From: Octopus vulgaris
Lineage: Eukaryota
Length of the DNA: 64,000 nt
Assembly (NCBI GenBank): GCA_951406725.2
Contig: OX597822.1
Coordinates: 61,008,001-61,072,000 of the forward strand
Reading direction: 5' to 3'
Positions 1 to 52,600 of this stretch are shown here, piece by piece. Numbering within the stretch: the stretch's first letter is position 1; each line of letters begins with the position of its first letter. Below the pieces are notes generated by a model. The model saw nothing but the letters and a program-made list of their open reading frames with translations. It was not told the origin of the DNA and searched no databases. Made by a program: the position numbers and the translations under genes.

Positions 1-2470
1 CTACCTCTTCCACGGGTTCCCTCCACTGCTAGGGATTGGCACTTTTTCACACACCTATCTTCATCCATTCTCGCCACATGACCGTACCAGCGCAATCGTC
101 TCTCTTGCACACCACAACTGATGCTCCTTAGGTACAACATTTCTCTCAGGGTACTAACGCTCTGTCGAGCATGCACACTGACATTACACATCCATCGGAG
201 CATACTGGCTTCATTTCTTGCGAGCTTATGCATGTCCTCAGCAGTCACGGCCCATGTTTCACTGCTATGTAGCATGGCTGTTCGTACACATGCATCATAC
301 AGTCTGCCTTTTACTCTGAGCGAGAGGCCTTTAGTCACCAGCAGAGGTAAGAGCTCCCTAAACTTTGCCCAGGCTATTCTTACTCTAGCCATTACACTTT
401 CAGCACACCCACCCCCACTACTGACTTGGTCACCAAGATAACGGAAGCAATCAACTACTTCTAGTTTTTCCCCCTGGAAAGTGACGGAAGTTGTTTTCTG
501 CAGATTTTCAGAGGTTAATGCTCCCGAGCATCTGCCGCATACAAAAACCATCTTCCTAGTTAGCCTTCCTTTGACATTGCTGCACCTCTTATGTGTCCAT
601 AGCTTACACTTGGTGCATCTTATAGAGTTTCTACCTACACCTTTTCTACAGATCGAGCAGGGCCATCTACCTGAAGGCGTTTGTGATTTGTCTACCTTCC
701 TACTTATTACGACTTTGGTTTTAGCTAGATTGACTCTAAGGCCCCTCGATTCTAAACCTTGCTTCCACACCTGAAACTTCTCCTCCAGTTCTGATAGTGA
801 CTCAGCAATTAGAGCAAGGTCATCAGCATAGAGGAGCTCCCAGGGGCATCCTGTCTTGAATTCCTCTGTTATTGCCTGGAGGACTATGATAAATAGGAGG
901 AGGCTGAGGACTGAGCCATGGTGGACCCCTACCTCTACCCGGAATTCTTCACTGTACTCGTTGCCAACCCTCACCTTACTAGCAGCGTCCCTGTACATGG
1001 CTCGCACAGCTCTCACTAACCATTCATCTATCCCTAGTTTCCTCATTGACCACCAGATGAGGGATCGGGGGACCCTGTTGAAGGCTTTCTCCATGTCAAC
1101 AAAAGGTACAGGGGCTTATCTTTGGCTAGGTATTTCTCCTGCAGCTGCCTTACCAGGAATATAGCATCAGTGGTACTTTTCCCTGGCACGAACCCAAACT
1201 GCATCTCATCTAAACTAACTCTCTCTCTAATTAGTTGGGCTATGACCCTCTCTGTAACCTTCATTACTTGATCCAACAGCTTGATACCTCTGTAATTATT
1301 TGTATCTAGGGCGTCACCTTTACCTTTGTAGCAGTTGACTATTATGCTGCTACACCAGTCATTGGGTATGACTCCTTCGTGTATCACCTGATTAACTATA
1401 CGGGTGACTAGGCTATAGCCGACACTACCAGATATTTTGAGCATCTCTGCAGTGATACCTGATGGGCCTGGGGCTTTCCCTGTCTTCATGCTTCTAATTG
1501 CCTTAACTACCAAGGAACTATCAACTCTGATAGCTGGTCCCTCTGTTGGGTCAACATTCGGCAGACTCTCTTTATCCCATTCATTTTCTTTATTCAGCAA
1601 CCTTTCATAGTGGCATCTCCAAACCTCTCTCTTTGCATCCTCATTTAGCGCAAGTGAACCATCTTCCATGCGAACACACTTCTCTCCTACCACATCACAA
1701 TTCTCTCTCACACACTGTCTTGCAACGCGAAACACCTCCAGTCTTTGGTCCTCACGGCGCAGAACATTGGCAAATTTTTTCTTATCTGCTTCCCCTCTGG
1801 CTAAATACACCAGTCTCCTAGCTTCCCTTTTAGCAGTCTGATACAATTCCCTGCTACCACCATTCTTCCAGTGTTTCCAAGTCTGTCTCTTTTCTCTAAT
1901 AGCCCTGTCTACAACACTGTTCCACCACCACGTAACCTTGGGATGAGAGGGGACTTTGCACCAGCCACAAATCTGGTCAGTGGCTCTCAGCAGGTTGTTC
2001 CTTAGAAACGTCCAGTTGCCCTCTACCCCATGTGATACTCTATCCCCTTCTACTTCGTCAAAGGCTTCAAGTAGCATGTCCCTAAATCTCTGTACATTCG
2101 CAGGATCTTTAAGCTTCCAGATCCTTCTTCTCCATGTTGGTCGTCTTCTGGTTGTCCTCCTAGTCCTGATCCTAAAGTCACTAACTACCAGTCTATGTTG
2201 TGGGGTACATTCTTCACCTGGGAAGGCTTTGGCATTTATAAGTAGCCATCTCTCCCTTTGCCTGGCAAGGATGTAGTCAATTTGGCTGGTATGTTGGCCC
2301 GATCGGTAGGTGACTAGGTGGCTGGTAGGTTTCCTGAAGTTAGTGTTGCAAATCATAAGATTATTTGCATCGCAGAACTCCAGCAGCCTGGCTCCCTCCT
2401 CATTGCGGGAACCATAGCCATAGCCTCCATGTACGCCATGGAAGCCCCCAGCATGTCGTCGAACGTGACC
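1..2470 (-). mobile_element. RTE-clade LINE, 5'-truncated inside the AP endonuclease; ORF2 with RT runs off the window start; frameshift near 1103
   Basis: ORF 1043..2815 gives GHV..HGGYGYGSRNEEG..LLEF, QIDYIL, KAPGPSGI, YRGIKLL, QFGFVPGKSTTDAIF. After the frameshift, manual translation gives VDMEKAFNRVP, ELLYADD (about 820-840), FRYLGDQ and RRLRWYGHV. Confidence 0.95.
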
Positions 2471-2517
2471 ATATAATGTGAGTGTGTATGTATGTATGTA
2501 TATATATATATACATAA

Positions 2518-2550
<33 letters not shown>

Positions 2551-2551
2551 T

Positions 2552-2595
<44 letters not shown>

Positions 2596-2656
2596 TTATA
2601 TTACATATACATAACATGTATATTAATGCATTTGTGTTCTTGTGAGAGTGTGTTAT

Positions 2657-2714
<58 letters not shown>

Positions 2715-2812
2715 ATATATATATATGTGTGTGTGTATGTAGATGTATCTGTGTATGTGTGTGCATGTACATGTGTATATAATGTATGTATGCATGTGCG
2801 TTTGCATACATA
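2471..2812. repeat. Compound (TA)n/(TG)n microsatellite at the 5' truncation point of the RTE
   Basis: Long tatata and tgtg runs. Confidence 0.9.
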
Positions 2813-3224
2813 CAAGCAATTGGTAACAGTAGCAGCAGCAGCTGAACCACTACCACCACTATCACTGCTCCATCACCACCATGACTACCATCACTTTTCT
2901 GTATTACATCAATATTAAAATTGCTGCACTCAATATTTTCTTGTCTATTAGAAACACCTAGAAAGACATCATTTTTCCTGACTCATGTCATTTTCTTTAA
3001 TAACACAACATGCTGTTTGTTCTACACTATAGTTCTGTCTATCTGTCTATCTATCTATCTATCTATAAAAATGGACCTAAGGGGAGGAGCCAAGAGGGCA
3101 CATGTCCCCCTCCAGAAAAGATGTGCGCCCTTCAAAATAATGTTATTACACCCTTTTCTCCTGGAATTGTATTCCCTTCTGACCTTGTGCCCTCCCTTCA
3201 AAAATTTCTGGGACTATACCTGAT

Positions 3225-3345
3225 CTGTCTGTCTGTCTATGTATGTATGTATGTATGTATGTATGTATGTATGTATGTATGTATGTATGTATGTATGTAT
3301 GTATGTATGTATGTATGTATGTATGTATGTATGTATGTGTGTATG
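3225..3345. repeat. (TCTG)n then (TATG)n tetranucleotide microsatellite
   Basis: Long uninterrupted gtat array. Confidence 0.95.
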
Positions 3346-16594: not shown

Positions 16595-16965
16595 TGTGTG
16601 GTAAATAGCTTGCTTACCAACCACATGGTTCCGGGTTCAGTTCCACTGTGTGGTACCTTGGGCAAGTGTCTTCTACTATAGCCTCGGGCCGACTAAAGCC
16701 ATGTGAGTGGATTTCGTAGACAGAAACTGAAAAGAAGCCCATTGTATATATGTATATACATGTATGTGTATGTGTTTGTGTCCCCAACATCGCTTGACAA
16801 CCGATGCTGGTGTGTTTATGTCCCTGTAACTTAGTGGTTCGGCAAAAGGAACTGATAGAATAAGTACTAGGCTTACAAAGAATAAGTCCTGGGGTCAATT
16901 TGTTCGACTAAAAGGCAGTGCCCCAGCATGGCCGCAGTCAAATGACTGAAACAAGTAAAAGAGTA
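16595..16965 (+). mobile_element. SINE family A
   Basis: tgtgtggtaaatagcttgcttacc..gactgaaacaagtaaaagagta. Confidence 0.9.
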
Positions 16966-24403: not shown

Positions 24404-24507
24404 GGCGGTTCCCCAGCATGGCCACAGCTCATGAGGTGAAACTAGATGAAATTAAAATATATATATATGTATATATATATATTTATATATGTGTGTGTAT
24501 GTATGTT

Positions 24508-24810
24508 ATCATCATCATCATCATCGCTTAATATCCATTTTCCATGCTAGCATGGGTTGGACGGTTTGACCGGGGTCTGATAAGCCAGGAGGCTATGCCA
24601 AGCTCCTGTCTGATCTGGCAGTGTTTCTACAGCTGGATGCCCTTCCTAACACCAACCACTCCGAAAGTGTAATGGGTGCTTTTTATGTGCCACCAGCACG
24701 GGCCAGAGGAGGCTGGCAAACGGCCACGATCAGTTGGTGCTTTTTACGTGCCACAGACATGGACGCCAGTCAGGCAGTGCTGGCATCAACCACGTTTGGA
24801 TGGTGCTTTA
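24508..24810 (-). mobile_element. RTE-type tail repeat ending in (GAT)n
   Basis: catcatcat..ttccatgctagcatgggttggacggtttgac..ggatgcccttcctaa; related copies at 8.5, 18.1, 27.8, 43.0, 55.8 and 62.2 kb. Confidence 0.8.
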
Positions 24811-25097: not shown

Positions 25098-25651
25098 CAA
25101 AGTACTGTTGGTGAATATCTCATGTTGTGAGATTTAAAAATAGTAATTTTCTAAAAACTACATTAAATTGAAGGATTACTCAATACATTTGTTAGAGTAC
25201 AAATTTAACCTACATATACTCTCAAAGTAAATAAGTGTCCCATTAATATCTAGACAAAACCAACAGCAACCAAAACAAGTGGCAGATCTGCTGTCCAACA
25301 ACCTAACTACATTCTTTTGTAAACACCTATGAGCTGAAGATGACACACCTTGAAGTACACAACTAATTAAAAAACTTTACATGCATGAATACATTCTAGC
25401 AATTAGCACTTGCCCATATTTAATCAACAAAAATTCTCCATACCCTCTGGCCACTAATACCAACCATACATCTTAATTACCATTCAACAGAACTCAGGTT
25501 GTTCCAGAAAATTTTTAACTCAACAGAGACTATATAAAGCCAAGATGAACTTCAATGATGGTTTAGCTGGCTGAAACTTTAAAGTCACTTTCAATACCAT
25601 TCTTGTTAAAGAATTATCTATAGGAGTGGCTGTGTGGTAAGTAGCTTGCTT

Positions 25652-27090
25652 CCGGTTACCCAGAGTGCAATTGGTTTGTCGTTAGTGTGCGAGTCAGACG
25701 TTTTTCTTTTTGCTGCTTTGAGGTTAGTAATGTACTCGGACCTTAGCGGGTCAGAGCTGTCTTCTTCAGAGGAGGAGCTGCTGAGAGCAGTAGAAGGCAT
25801 GGATGAATATTTGAAGAAAACGAAGAGTTTCGCAGAGGCTGTGGAGGTGAAGAGAAAAGAGGTGGATTTATCAAGTATGAAGGAGCATGGAAAAATGGTG
25901 CAGAAAGTGGGCGGCAACGTGACGTTGTCACTGCCACAAAGAATAATGGATGGCATAAAAAGAAGAACGGTCATATACAAAGTTTACTCGATAAAGAGTA
26001 AGAAGGTCGACCTAATAGAAATAGAGAAAATAGAAAAGGCAGTAAAGGAGGAATCCAACGGAGTAATATACATGAGAAGAGGATGCCAATATGGGACAAT
26101 GGTAGTCCAGTTTAGAACAGAGGAGGAGGCAAGGAGGCTGGCGGGTAAAAGAGTAAAGACGAAGGAAATGGTCCTTCTACCCATGTATCTTGGAAAAAGG
26201 ACTTCCAAGATAAGGGTAGAAGCAATTCCAACTGATATAAATGTGGCTTGGGTAGTGACAGCTGTCCTTGTTGGAAGCGAGGAAAAGGTGGCTGTCTTCC
26301 AAGCCACAGAAACAGAGAGGGAGGGTGGAAAGGAAGGACGCTTGAGTTAATTATTCAGACGGAGGAGGGACAACTCGAGAACTTGGCAGAGACTGTGACG
26401 CTGGGGGAAATCGTGCTGAGTGTGTGGGTAGAGGGCAGAGTACCACGTTGTTTTAAATGTGGCCAAAAGGGCCACATTAGAGCATACTGCCCTCTACGAA
26501 GGACTATGGCTGAGGATATAGTTGCAGAGACAGAAGAGAAAAGAGAGGAAGACAAAATAGACGAAGGAAACGATAAAAAAGAGGAAGAATGGAAAATTGC
26601 AGAGCGCAAAAGGAGAAAGAGGAAAAAAAGAAAAGACACTGAGTATGATGTGGCAACCCAGTCCAACCCCATCCCATCCAAGACCACTCAGACCCACCCT
26701 CCCCATACAGACACCAAACCCACCCACCCCATTTCCCCTCAAGAAAAAAAGAAAAAGAAAGAACAGACACTACGGTGAAAAAGGTTATGAATGCATGATG
26801 GAGAGAATGTTATCATTAAGTGACAGTGAAAAGGGAAAAAGGATTGGACGAAAAGAGAAAAAGGACTCAGGACCCAGAGACAGCGAGTTGTGTTACTCAG
26901 TGTGGGGTGAGTAGCAAACTCTTCATATCATTTTCAGATATCATTCATATTATCATATTTTAATTTGTTCTTCATGTGCATTTTCATGTTCATTCATTAC
27001 ATCATATTTTATTTTTAATTGTAATATGTCCCCCACATGTGTTGTAGTGTCCCCTCTGTGTATTGCCTTTATGGCAAATTTAATAAAATA
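25652..27090 (+). mobile_element. ORF1-only non-autonomous L1/Tx1-type retroelement (HAL1-like)
   Basis: 13-bp TSD aagtagcttgctt (25639-51 and 27091-103); gag-like ORF; 3' hairpin ttgcc-tttat-ggcaa plus aataaaata; no EN or RT. Confidence 0.8.
25730..26914 (+). pseudogene. Gag-like ORF1 with CCHC zinc knuckle, frameshifted
   Basis: ATG 25730 (MYSDLSGSE..); RRM-like VVQFRTEEEARRL; frameshift near 26320 into ..VWVEGRVPRCFKCGQKGHIRAYCP (knuckle 26449-26490); K/E-rich tail; stop at 26778, or 26914 if there is a second frameshift. Confidence 0.8.
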
Positions 27091-28290
27091 AAGTAGCTTG
27101 CTTACGAACCACATGGTTCTGGGTTCAGTCCCACTGTGTGACACCTTGGGCAAGTGTCTTCTACTGTAGCCTCGGGCTGACCAAAGCCTGGATTTGGTAG
27201 ACGGAAACTGAAAGAAGCTCGTTGTATATATATATATATATGTATGTATGTATGTATGTGTGTGTGTGTGTATATGTTTGTGTGTCTGTATTTGTCCCCC
27301 CAACATCGCTTGACAACCGATGCTGGGGTGTTTACGTCCCTGTAACTTAGCAGTTCAGCAAAAGAGACCGATAGAATAAGTACTAGGCTTACAACCTGGG
27401 GGTTGATTTGCTTGACTAAAAGCGGTGCTCCAGCATGGCCACAGTCAAATGACTGAAACAAGTAAAAGAATAAAAGAGATATATACACACACATAATGTG
27501 GATGGATGCTGATTGCTCCATAAATAAGTGTCAATCTCTCAAAGTGGATGAAACTTGTGGATGAAGGAGACCAAGAAAGACATGGGACAAGACACTGAAC
27601 GATGACCTCAGGATGTTGAACCTTTCAGACAAGATGACAAAGGACCGCAATATCTGGTGCCTTGCTGTACTCAAGAAATCCTGTCCTCCACAGCAGAAGT
27701 GTTAAGGCCAATTCCCCCTGGTGACAGAGAAAGTCCTGTGCCGGTGCCACATAGAAAGCATTGTACCCAGCACACACACTGTAAAGTGGTTGGCATTAGG
27801 AAGGGCATCCAGCAGTAAAAGCTAAGCCAAATCAAACTGGAACCTGGTGTAGCTCTCCAGTTTACCAGCTTTGGTCAAACCGTCCAACCCATGCCAGCAT
27901 GAAAAACGTACGTTAAAGGATGATGATGATGAAGGAATATGATGTATATAACAGGCTTCCACACAGCTACTCACAGTTTCTGTCCTAATTTATTTACAAG
28001 GTATTGGACAGCCTGGGGCTATATTAGAAGATACTTACCCAAGGTGTCGCACAGGGGGACTGAACCCAAAACCATGTGGTTGCAAAGCTAACTTCTTAAC
28101 CACACAGCCATACCTATGTATGTATACTAATATGATACCATTTTGCTCCAAACTTATAACCAATCTCATTATAACGTTAGCCATCTCCACTCCCTCTTTT
28201 TTCTTTATTTTTTTTTAGATATTATTCATCCTTCCATATCTTTCAAAACATTTCCCGGGTACAAGCCTGACCTGTGAGCTGTAGCAAATA

Positions 28291-49600: not shown

Positions 49601-52600
49601 AATCTTAAAAGCCCCTTCCTACCCACATCTTCTGTACATATATGAGATATAGAGATTCAAGTTGAACAATAATTGTAGTAACCTGCTAGGATGATTACCA
49701 CTCAGACTAAATTGAAATAAAACAAAATAGATAAGTGAAGTTAAAATAAAACATGTCATGGTAAAAAAAAAATAGATAAAAGGTTCATTATCATGACTAA
49801 ACATTCATAATATTGCCCTAGTTAGCTGCAGCAGCTGATGTCTAACCAGTTAATTTGTTTGCCTACTTGAAAGAGCTATGTTGTTGGAAGTGAGCTGATT
49901 TTCTCTTTCATCATTAGAGATAAATTCGACTCAATGTTAATATACCTTCCTCCTTCTTTACATTTAAAAATTTTTAGACTTATTTTCCAGCTTAACAATG
50001 ATCATCCTTATTCATTTTCAATGGGCTATGACAAAAGTCAGCATAGAAATATTTTTAGTTCTGTAGCTTTTAATATTACTTAGGCGAGTCTGCAAAGAAA
50101 AATATGAGATCATTAATTATTTCTAACACAGACATAAGGCTGCTGATATTGTAGGAGGGAACTATTGATTTTTATTAATGCCACTAATTACCTGGTACTT
50201 TTATTGGCCTTATAGGAGGGAAAGTAAAAGTTGACCCAGACTAGATTTGAACTCCTAATGAAAGGACTATAACTAAATATCACAAAGCACTTTGTCCAAT
50301 GTCAAATGACTTCAGTCTTTCTGAAATCAATAATAAAATAAATCTTGTTATATTTGTAAATGTGATGTGGATGTTAGAGATGGAGGTGCAAATTTAACTG
50401 TTTTTGTCTGGTGATCAAATACTTTAACTCCTTTACAATTAGTATAAAAGATTCTTTTAAATCGGTTAACTTCAGTGAATTTCCCTTCCTTATTGTATCT
50501 AATTTTAAGTTGTTTATAATTTTGATATTTAGTATTTAAATGCTCTAGAGTTCAAATCCCATTGATGTCAGCTTAGTCTTTCATCCCTCCAAGATTAATG
50601 GAATAAAGTACCAGTAAAGTACTGGAGCTAATGGTATCAACTAACTTCCCCTTCCTCAAAGTTGCAGGCCTTGTACCTACATTAGAAACAGTTATTTAAA
50701 CATACTTTTGATATGAACTTTTAACAACAAAACTTCTAAGAAAATAATAATATATATAAAACTAGAACAGTAGTTATATTCTCTTTACAGTATGCCTTCA
50801 CAAATAAGTAAACTCTATCATTTCGTATTAAAACTATTGATGCTTTAAAATAGTGAATGAATCTCCAAACCTCACTTGATGTGTGTTTGTGTGTACATAC
50901 TAATCTATCTAATGTTTGTATTGGGTTGTCCGGAAAGTTCATGCCAATTTTTAAAGGAAAGAAAGAAGTCAATAAATACTTGCCATTACATTTTTAAACA
51001 ACCAAATATGAACCATTTTGTTGCACAATGCATCTCCATCTTTCCTTTAACTTGAAAATACCCTCTTCCCAGAATTGAGGTGCCCGGGAGGGTAAGTCAA
51101 AAGGTAAGCTACTATAAGTCGGCACAAACTTTCCAGACAACCCAATATATATGTATAATTATAGGGTTGTTCACTTATAAGATTGTTTCTCATTAACTAA
51201 TTTGTATTCTCATTTTATAATTCTAGGCTCAACAAACTGCTTATGCCAGCAATCATGCTATACAATACCCTGCACAGTCTGAACATGGTCACTTGTATCC
51301 AACTCTGGGAGATTATATGGGTCTACCATTGACTCCTGAATTGGTTCAGGATATGGCACCACCAGCAAATACACAAATTGCTTTAAGTCATGGACATAGT
51401 GATCAGATGCAAGTAGCTCCAATAACTGGTGCCAATAAAGGTTTGGTAAGAGCTGAGATAAAACAAGGTATTCGAGAAGTGTTGCTGTGCAAAGACGAAC
51501 ATGGAAAGATTGGATTGCGTCTCCGACATGTGAACAATGTAAGTTGTTTAAGCAAGTGTTGTTTAGTACTTCAGTATCTTGTGTGTTTCTGTGTAATGCA
51601 GTTGATCTCCAACTTAGCTTAATTTCCAAGATTTGATTATACTTTTGAAAAATAATTCTTGTTTATCCTTCATGCTACATGAATAGAAGCTGTTAATTTT
51701 CAATGATTTTTCCTCTTATTTTTTGTGATGTTTACATGTGAATCACTGGAATATAATGTCTTTGAGCAATCTTCTTACATATGTAGAGTTTTGTTGCCCT
51801 GTATAGAGATTAGATGCTTTGAAGTGAGCCATAATTTCAGTATACTTTGTATGCTATATTGCACATTTTGTAATACAATATTTTGTAACATTATGTACAG
51901 TGCAGAATCTTAAATATTTCATTAAGCTTGATGTCCATCTAGTTTTGATGTGTTCATATATGTAACAATGTTTTGTTTGCAGGCATAGTAGAACATCGTC
52001 ATCAATGTGTGGTAAACTAGATTCTTCATAGCTAAATGAAGGTAGTTAGTAATTCAGCATTGGGTTTGAGCTGAGATAGGAAGTTCAGTTCAATTGTTTT
52101 TAGTGTTTATATGTTTCATCTGGATTGGATAAGAGATTGACTTTCAAAATCCTGATGTTCTGATGATTTGGTGTGTTTTAATGTTGAGGATAATGCTCCC
52201 TACCTTTGGATGTGGTGCTCTTCCTTGCCAGAGAACAGTATTTTCATGCCATCTGTCTACTCACTCTTGATCTGTCTTCCTCATTTCACTGATCTACATC
52301 AGATAATAGTCTTTCATCACTCTTAGTGTGTGGACATTCCAGGTGCCCAGGTGCCTACTCTTGTGTTGGCATTGGTGTTGAAGATACAATTTATTGTTGG
52401 TTGGGCTTCCTCGTGGCTTTGATCCAGCTTGATTATAACATCCAAGGATGTATCTTCTCTCCTGCATATATGTACCATAATGGTCACTTTTCATCATTCA
52501 TGTAGCAATATGTGAACTTCAGAAAGTTGAATTTTTAGCCCCATACCCCAACCCATCTTTTGCAACCAGCTTGGAACCATTTTTGATGGAGTTATGACCA

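What the first reader, a model, noticed from the sequence alone, without database searches (positions are those of the whole stretch)
25639..27103. ORF1-only (HAL1-like) Tx1-type retroelement inserted into a SINE tRNA head
Seen: a 1439-bp insert bounded by a perfect 13-bp TSD (aagtagcttgctt). It has a 78-nt leader, a gag-like ORF with RRM-like and CCHC-knuckle segments, a short 3' UTR with a hairpin and aataaaata, and no endonuclease or RT between intact ends. Established: V.V.G.P.CxxCxxxxHxxxxC is typical of L1/Tx1 ORF1; ORF1-only parasites (HAL1, HeT-A) exist; many Tx1 families target specific small-RNA sequences. Inference: a non-autonomous half-Tx1 family that supplies its own RNA chaperone, borrows ORF2 in trans, and may use the abundant SINE head as a landing site.
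Basis: partly seen in the sequence, partly recalled or inferred. Interest (0 to 1): 0.8.

Follow-up and report, generated by a model that had tools for sequence, protein, structure and literature searches.

The report
Octopus half-LINE copy inside a SINE
This is a real but already broken copy of a small octopus jumping gene that carries only an RNA-binding protein gene and no copying enzyme, so it probably borrows the enzyme from a larger element; the kind is known, and whether it aims at the short repeat it landed in is still untested.

Summary
The insert is real: 1,439 bp between exact 13-bp target-site duplications, splitting the head of an abundant SINE. It encodes a type I LINE ORF1: two RRM-like domains and one CCHC knuckle (fold shown on a homolog). 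All 19 relatives named to an organism are Octopus or Argonauta. No endonuclease or RT lies in the insert or in 150 relatives scanned.

Corrections: the ORF is frameshifted inside RRM2, and this copy has drifted from the family residue at 8 of 11 core sites, so it is a decayed copy. The main 3' hairpin is at 26885-26921 and shows a pair-preserving double change.

Contigs of three runs cover the whole insert as a repeat, with 3'UTR and 5' depth similar (ratio 1.3-1.9). The last bases seem shared with a far larger family, a candidate partner. This favours an ORF1-only family (about 0.6) over a one-off deletion (about 0.22). No other copy was seen end to end.

Tx1 membership cannot be tested without an RT. 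SINE targeting rests on one event and was not tested. Verdict: new member of a known kind (HAL1-like).

The parts
25620..25651 (+). 5' part of the host SINE head, with an A-box-like motif at 25627-25637
   Evidence: aligns with 9 other heads in the window; box assignment by eye, from recalled consensus
25639..25651 (+). left target-site duplication (13 bp); the site reads T|AAG
   Evidence: exact repeat
25652..25729 (+). 78-nt 5' leader; the 5' end is probably the family's own
   Evidence: three diverged contigs from three runs begin or end at 25651, 25655 and 25658 (table 8); no significant fold (42 of 200 shuffles as good)
25730..26350 (+). ORF1, first frame (206 aa): N-terminal part, RRM-like domain 1 (about 25960-26195) and first half of RRM-like domain 2
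   Evidence: (222 relatives at E<=1e-3); domains mapped from the model of homolog P0025
26310..26320 (+). one-base frameshift inside RRM-like domain 2
   Evidence: frames change here against homologs; other contigs show a one-base length difference at 26315 in 395 of 804 depth (X1), 726 of 2507 (X3), 47 of 156 (X7)
26236..26778 (+). ORF1, second frame: rest of RRM-like domain 2, CCHC knuckle, acidic/basic low-complexity tail, stop at 26776-26778
   Evidence: 42% identity over 140 aa to P0106, E 1e-26
26449..26490 (+). single C-x2-C-x4-H-x4-C zinc knuckle
   Evidence: Pfam PF00098; 16 of 150 relatives carry the pattern, each once
26779..27090 (+). 3' untranslated region (312 nt): purine-rich, then hairpin, then T-rich with a 49-nt tandem duplication at 26920-27015
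26885..26921 (+). conserved 3' hairpin, candidate recognition signal
   Evidence: -16.2 kcal/mol; pair 26889-26917 is U-A here and G-C in 94-97% and 95-99% of depth in X1 and X3; depth peak of about 200 locus-equivalents
27055..27090 (+). 3' tail: weak hairpin 27063-27077 and aataaaata; shared with many elements that have other upstream sequence
   Evidence: loose ends before 27055 in 20 (X1) and 25 (X7) contigs; about 2,900-3,300 locus-equivalents at 27085
27091..27103 (+). right target-site duplication (13 bp)
27104..27440 (+). rest of the host SINE: B-box-like motif 27122-27131, central body, (TA/TG)n tract, 3' body
   Evidence: 77-79% identical over about 370 nt to copies at 4449-4019, 13498-13150 and 16595-16933

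Best explanation
A full-length but decayed copy of an octopod non-autonomous LINE family of the HAL1 type: leader, type I ORF1 (two RRM-like domains, one CCHC knuckle), 3'UTR, no ORF2.

Steps. (1) An ancestor lost ORF2 while keeping both ends (inferred). (2) Master copies are transcribed and their ORF1p coats the RNA (inferred from the fold; RNA binding not tested). (3) The 3' hairpin and tail are recognised by the EN/RT of an autonomous L1/Tx1-like partner that shares the tail (inferred; partner not identified). (4) Target-primed reverse transcription at a T|AAG site made the 13-bp duplication (duplication shown, mechanism from established knowledge). (5) This copy landed between the A-box-like and B-box-like motifs of a SINE, most likely by chance, and has since decayed or came from an already broken master (break and drift shown).
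For: Exact TSD around a complete unit with no room for ORF2.

The whole insert is covered in three runs at many times single-locus depth: 8-44 locus-equivalents over the 5' bins, 15-41 over 26724-26879, 16-30 at 26984-27035. 3'UTR/5' ratio 1.3, 1.8, 1.9. A 5-6 kb parent with the usual 5' truncation would be expected to give a steeper ratio (inference). Family-wide, knuckle depth (300-390) is not lower than hairpin depth (170-280).

Near-identical contigs at 4-8 times single-locus depth show a young multi-copy subfamily. Contigs carrying other copies' letters reach over 26616-26738 and 26801-26970, read from the from_end column.

0 of 150 relatives carry an EN or RT Pfam family, while 4 are gene-model fusions to unrelated host domains. 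All 12 unnamed contigs with these ORFs are 1.3-2.45 kb, four of one cluster 1.85-1.93 kb.

Two-RRM fold: pLDDT 82.8, top Foldseek hits are tandem RRMs, E 1e-5. Pair-preserving change in the hairpin.
Against: No contig spans the insert, and no second copy was seen end to end. 26738-26801, exactly where ORF1 stops, is not shown bridged by another copy; the tool notes contigs seem cut there.

The tool warns that summed depth is no copy number, and I chose the single-locus baseline myself. An 80% identity filter shapes the profile. Annotation pipelines mask known ORF2s, which by itself lowers ORF1-ORF2 fusions (inference). Short contigs are the norm in repeats.

One X13 contig joins the hairpin to unlike sequence upstream of 26859 (record 16), so some relatives have other DNA, possibly ORF2, before the hairpin. 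No clear purifying signal: 11 of 27 listed coding differences are synonymous against 22-28% expected, p 0.03-0.19. Six longer relatives carry a C-terminal region that this copy lacks, which could mean truncation.
Confidence: 0.6

Rival explanations
1. A one-off (or few-copy) internal deletion: an ordinary autonomous L1/Tx1-like element lost ORF2 during or after insertion, by template jump, splicing or recombination near the A-rich stretch at 26738-26801.
For: The junction window 26738-26801 is unbridged. Active L1-Tx1 families of about 5.4 kb mean length exist in O. vulgaris (421 insertions, 2,288,644 bp; PMC13282606 Table 1). The tail is shared with a much larger family. This copy lacks the C-terminal region of six longer relatives.
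Against: Flat depth from 5' end to mid-3'UTR and knuckle depth at or above hairpin depth. No EN/RT on 150 relatives. Other relatives also end in a basic tail without the C-terminal region, for example all four members of the P0082 cluster.
Confidence: 0.22
2. A processed retrocopy: an mRNA of an ORF1-derived host gene, or a spliced or early-polyadenylated LINE RNA, was copied passively, with no dedicated non-autonomous family.
For: Intronless ORF with leader, AATAAA-like signal and TSD. Several relatives are annotated as genes. Contigs of a run guessed to be RNA cover 28 of 30 bins (not shown to be transcribed).
Against: No poly(A) tract. The relatives form many deep lineages of fragments and fusions, as repeats do. 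The tail and hairpin are shared with hundreds to thousands of locus-equivalents.
Confidence: 0.1
3. Add-on to the best explanation, not exclusive: the partner endonuclease prefers this site in the SINE head (or the tRNA gene it derives from), as Tx1 families prefer U2 snRNA genes, microsatellites or other transposons.
For: The SINE head and body matches cover only 3.1% of the window. Tx1 targeting of multicopy sequences is established (PMC4494074 passages). One X3 contig with other letters ends about 32 bases upstream of the 5' end, as it would on meeting a high-copy repeat. About 100 high-depth contigs carry position 27085 away from their ends, so shared sequence may follow the tail.
Against: n = 1. 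0 of 9 other heads in the window carry an insert here. SINEs are 11.6% of the O. vulgaris genome. Several contigs break at 25650-25658, as they would if different flanks met a shared 5' end. What follows the tail could simply be an A-rich tail.
Confidence: 0.2

Closest known systems
HAL1 (half-L1) of mammals
   Same: Non-autonomous LINE derivative that encodes only ORF1p and arose several times (PMC5753468, PMC5786205; passages).
   Different: ORF1 here is type I (two RRM-like domains plus CCHC), not the mammalian type II. There is no poly(A) tract. The parent LINE is unidentified and family status is indirect. The defining paper (Bao and Jurka 2010) was not held.
HeT-A (Jockey clade) and Ag-Sponge (CR1 clade)
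   Same: The other two ORF1-bearing bipartite non-autonomous LINEs listed in PMC5786205; their ORF1p is proposed to multimerise with the partner's.
   Different: No telomeric array or telomeric role here; dispersed copy with a 13-bp TSD; a single knuckle.
Tx1-clade LINEs (Tx1L, Keno, Kibi, Koshi, Tx1-Mar)
   Same: Type I ORF1 variants in non-mammalian animals are described as consistent with Tx1 (PMC5203782). An ESM Atlas lead points to ZCCHC3-type RBD1+RBD2+CCHC clusters (score 0.90, rank 6); the link of that architecture to Tx1 ORF1 is recalled. L1-Tx1 is active in O. vulgaris.
   Different: No ORF2, so no RT phylogeny. 0 of 26 aligned members hit the ZCCHC3 RBD or DUF4283 families among the 25 of 28 families shown at E<=1. 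No SINE target appeared in the passages read.
Octopus tRNA-derived SINEs (OK, OR1, OR2; Ohshima and Okada 1994)
   Same: The host repeat is an abundant SINE-like element with A-box-like and B-box-like motifs; OR2 is cited as a CORE SINE (PMC4758252).
   Different: Which family this is could not be tested: no SINE library here.

Membership tests
ORF1-only non-autonomous LINE (HAL1-like) | Encodes an ORF1p homolog | tested here: met
   CCHC knuckle; two RRM-like domains in homolog P0025; single-sequence model of the window's own protein was unusable, pLDDT 35.6
ORF1-only non-autonomous LINE (HAL1-like) | No ORF2 (EN/RT) between intact ends | tested here: met
   only 312 nt follow the ORF1 stop
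ORF1-only non-autonomous LINE (HAL1-like) | Inserted by retrotransposition (TSD, LINE-like 3' end) | tested here: met
   exact 13-bp TSD; aataaaata end, no poly(A) tract
ORF1-only non-autonomous LINE (HAL1-like) | Several independent copies share the ORF2-less structure | tested here: inconclusive
   multi-copy cover and flat profile, but no spanning contig and 26738-26801 unbridged
ORF1-only non-autonomous LINE (HAL1-like) | Ends shared with an identified autonomous partner | tested here: inconclusive
   tail shared with about 3,000 locus-equivalents; partner not retrieved; the RT-bearing LINE in the window shows no match to the tail
Tx1 clade | RT phylogeny places the element or its partner in Tx1 | not testable with these tools
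   no ORF2; no genome held
Tx1 clade | ORF1 closer to Tx1 ORF1 than to other type I ORF1s | tested here: inconclusive
   Atlas leads at 0.87-0.92 mix ZCCHC3-type, PRE_C2HC and DUF4780 clusters; no Pfam RBD hit
Target-specific Tx1 families | More than 20% of copies flanked by one target sequence | not testable with these tools
   loose-end and joint tables showed SINE empty sites and cut off over 1,000 further rows
tRNA-derived SINE (host repeat) | tRNA-like head with A and B boxes, high copy number | tested here: inconclusive
   10 heads in 64 kb and box-like motifs by eye; ARAGORN 0 genes; no tRNA among 3 weak Rfam hits

The most novel reading that the evidence does not exclude
Octopods carry an old, many-lineage radiation of ORF1-only LINE parasites, several hundred loci, the first derived from Tx1. 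They share a conserved 3' hairpin and a tail with a partner of about 3,000 copies. The partner's endonuclease cuts the genome's commonest SINE between its A and B boxes, so these elements use a rival retroposon as a safe, ever-renewed landing site and silence it as they land.
Probability: 0.13. Interest if true: 0.72.

Novelty: new member of a known kind. Interest (0 to 1): 0.4.

Why it matters
ORF1-only LINE derivatives are a short list: HAL1, HeT-A and Ag-Sponge in PMC5786205. A mollusc family with a type I ORF1 would add an independent origin and a test of why such parasites keep ORF1. The protein family has 222 relatives and no Pfam family beyond the knuckle, and it already contaminates octopus gene models (4 of 150 are fusions to host domains). 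The conserved hairpin is a concrete candidate for the partner's recognition signal. SINE targeting would be the surprising part, but nothing here shows it. If the junction is unique to this locus, the finding is an ordinary deleted LINE.

Tried and rejected
No data: no whole genome held. Word-indexed protein searches found nothing: near lengths, longer with the knuckle region, and alignment against 1,092-3,115 aa proteins (weak evidence by the tool's own note). No related loci in metagenome, prokaryote-genome or viral contigs, as expected for octopus DNA. No look-alikes among earlier findings. No RNA holder is on record, so expression was not tested.

Read laying with SINE flanks included: the SINE filled the joint and loose-end tables, so flanks of other copies were not seen.

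Third frame 26561-26914 as a continuation of ORF1: a by-eye likeness to P0107 was not significant (best E 0.29; shuffles); rejected as unsupported.

C-terminal region of longer relatives: leave-one-out recovered 4 of 6 clearly, 1 marginally, 1 not; best hit in the insert's six frames E 0.38; boundaries were set by eye.

Single-sequence fold of the window's protein: pLDDT 35.6, discarded. PDB sequence search matched only the knuckle and low-complexity stretches. No LINE ORF1 structure appeared among the listed fold hits, which excludes nothing.

Programmed frameshift: no canonical slippery heptamer by eye, and many other contigs differ in length there; not pursued. Assembly artefact or chance repeat: rejected by the exact TSD in a restorable SINE and by cover in four runs. 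LTR or DNA transposon: no terminal direct or inverted repeats at the insert's ends. The tree is the quick version, 13 of 25 inner branches open; used only to show depth of the family.

Full report
Observation. The 13-bp repeat is exact and cannot be extended; it bounds 1,439 bp. The restored empty site is the head of a roughly 370-nt repeat with 9 further heads in the window, all uninterrupted at this position. The insert separates the A-box-like motif (25627-25637) from the B-box-like motif (27122-27131), both read by eye; ARAGORN and Rfam give no tRNA. The insert has no second copy in the window and no terminal repeats.

Protein. The coding region lies in two frames, 25730-26350 and 26236-26778. 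HMMER over 1.84 billion proteins found 222 relatives at E<=1e-3, of which the best 150 were listed. I looked up 30 of the 150: 19 name an organism (18 Octopus, 1 Argonauta) and 11 do not, so the window is almost certainly octopod. Homologs align across both frames, which places a one-base shift at about 26310-26320. An AlphaFold model of homolog P0025 with 145 sequences (pLDDT 82.8) has two alpha/beta domains; Foldseek's top hits are tandem RRM proteins (E 1e-5), and VIA-align gives Z 9.0, rmsd 2.7 over 82 residues for the first domain and about Z 8 for the second against ferredoxin-like folds. RRM plus CCHC is type I ORF1p (PMC5203782, passages). The break falls inside the second domain, so this copy would make a protein without the knuckle.

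State of this copy. Other contigs differ by one base in length at 26315 in 49%, 29% and 30% of depth (X1, X3, X7); whether the rest share the break is not shown. Of 28 listed coding rows I classed 27 (a second letter at 26151 was dropped); the table showed 40 of 333 rows. Eleven are synonymous, against 22-28% expected (p 0.03-0.19). At 8 of 11 amino-acid differences in the core, the other copies' residue is the commoner one in the family. The copy, or its subfamily, has decayed.

Family or one-off. Four runs were laid on the insert. Depth was scaled by the median of low-depth long contigs that I picked (7, 7 and 6 contigs); the tool warns that summed depth is no copy number, so these are rough. 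Three runs agree: 8-44 over the 5' bins, 300-390 at the knuckle, 15-41 over 26724-26879, 170-280 at the hairpin, 16-30 in mid-3'UTR, about 2,900-3,300 at 27085. The flat body profile and knuckle depth at or above hairpin depth fit short elements better than 5'-truncated long ones (inference). Contigs at 97-99% identity stand at 4-8 times single-locus depth. From the from_end column, contigs with other copies' letters span 26616-26738 and 26801-26970, if their ends are aligned. No EN or RT family was found on 150 of 150 relatives, while 4 are fused to unrelated host domains. Twelve unnamed contigs with these ORFs are 1,301-2,446 bases.

Against this. No contig spans the insert. The gap 26738-26801 holds the ORF1 stop and is where a one-off junction would sit. 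One X13 contig has unlike sequence upstream of 26859. Masking of ORF2 in annotation and short contigs in repeats can produce the last two signs without any ORF1-only family. Six longer relatives have a C-terminal region absent here, though the four-member P0082 cluster also ends without it.

3' signals. The hairpin 26885-26921 folds at -16.2 kcal/mol. Its pair 26889-26917 is U-A here; most other depth shows G at the first place (4,234 of 4,372 in X1) and C at the second (1,958 of 1,982), so pairing is kept through a change on both sides. Phase is not shown directly, and in X1 more depth keeps this copy's letter at the first place (138) than at the second (24). The tail from 27055 is shared by contigs with other upstream sequence (20 in X1, 25 in X7). 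The high depth at 27085 scales with the element peaks across runs and not with SINE depth (1.8%, 1.8%, 0.9%, 0.14%), which argues against spill from the SINE but does not exclude it. This is the best lead to a partner.

Targeting. One event. SINE matches cover 3.1% of the window and SINEs 11.6% of O. vulgaris. Contig ends near the 5' boundary point both ways. The site T|AAG is a common motif. I give targeting about 0.2.

Known kinds. PMC5786205 names HAL1, HeT-A and Ag-Sponge as the ORF1-bearing non-autonomous LINEs, from the L1, Jockey and CR1 clades. This element works like them. Membership meets three features and leaves two open. Tx1 membership cannot be tested without an RT. Nine literature searches listed no ORF1-only element in cephalopods and no SINE-targeting Tx1; I judged from listings and passages, and Repbase, Dfam and subscription papers were not searched. 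Earlier AI notes report ORF1-only elements in fungi and protists; unchecked, they suggest the kind recurs.

What I saw of each paper. Passages: PMC5786205, PMC5753468, PMC4494074, PMC5203782, PMC4758252, PMC8967140, PMC9115989. PMC13282606: part 1 of 3 and a term search of its one supplement, which holds no repeat sequences that I saw; its library may already contain this family. Bao and Jurka 2010 and Ohshima and Okada 1994: nothing, cited through others.

Verdict. Observation confirmed with corrections. Most likely a decayed copy of an octopod ORF1-only LINE family (0.6), rival one-off deletion (0.22). New member of a known kind; interest 0.4.

Noticed in passing
window 3-2872 (-): LINE ORF in two frames with RVT_1 hits (E 1.5e-17 and 4.5e-4) and a PHD-like finger; RTE-like by recall. 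It shows no match to the insert's tail.
   Followed up: partly
window about 51227-51540 (+): Probable exon of a syntenin-1 gene (PDB match E 2.6e-8); whether the insert lies in this gene was not checked.
   Followed up: partly
proteins P0007, P0019, P0044, P0151: Gene models in which this ORF1 family is fused to C2H2 zinc-finger, LDL-receptor A, WD40 or astacin domains; probably annotation fusions, though exaptation is not excluded.
   Followed up: no
proteins P0014, P0049, P0055, P0080, P0101, P0107: A C-terminal region of about 80-100 aa without a Pfam family, shared by longer relatives; leave-one-out recovers 4 of 6 clearly.
   Followed up: partly
window 26561-26914 (+): A third frame is open for 117 codons and stops inside the hairpin; no significant likeness to relatives.
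   Followed up: yes
window 24500-24800 and 27730-27935: Two pieces that look like another dispersed repeat with (CAT/ATG)n ends, in opposite orientation on either side of the SINE; seen by eye.
   Followed up: no
window 10460-10246 (-): A copy of the host SINE with the 3' body only, starting at the microsatellite tract.
   Followed up: partly
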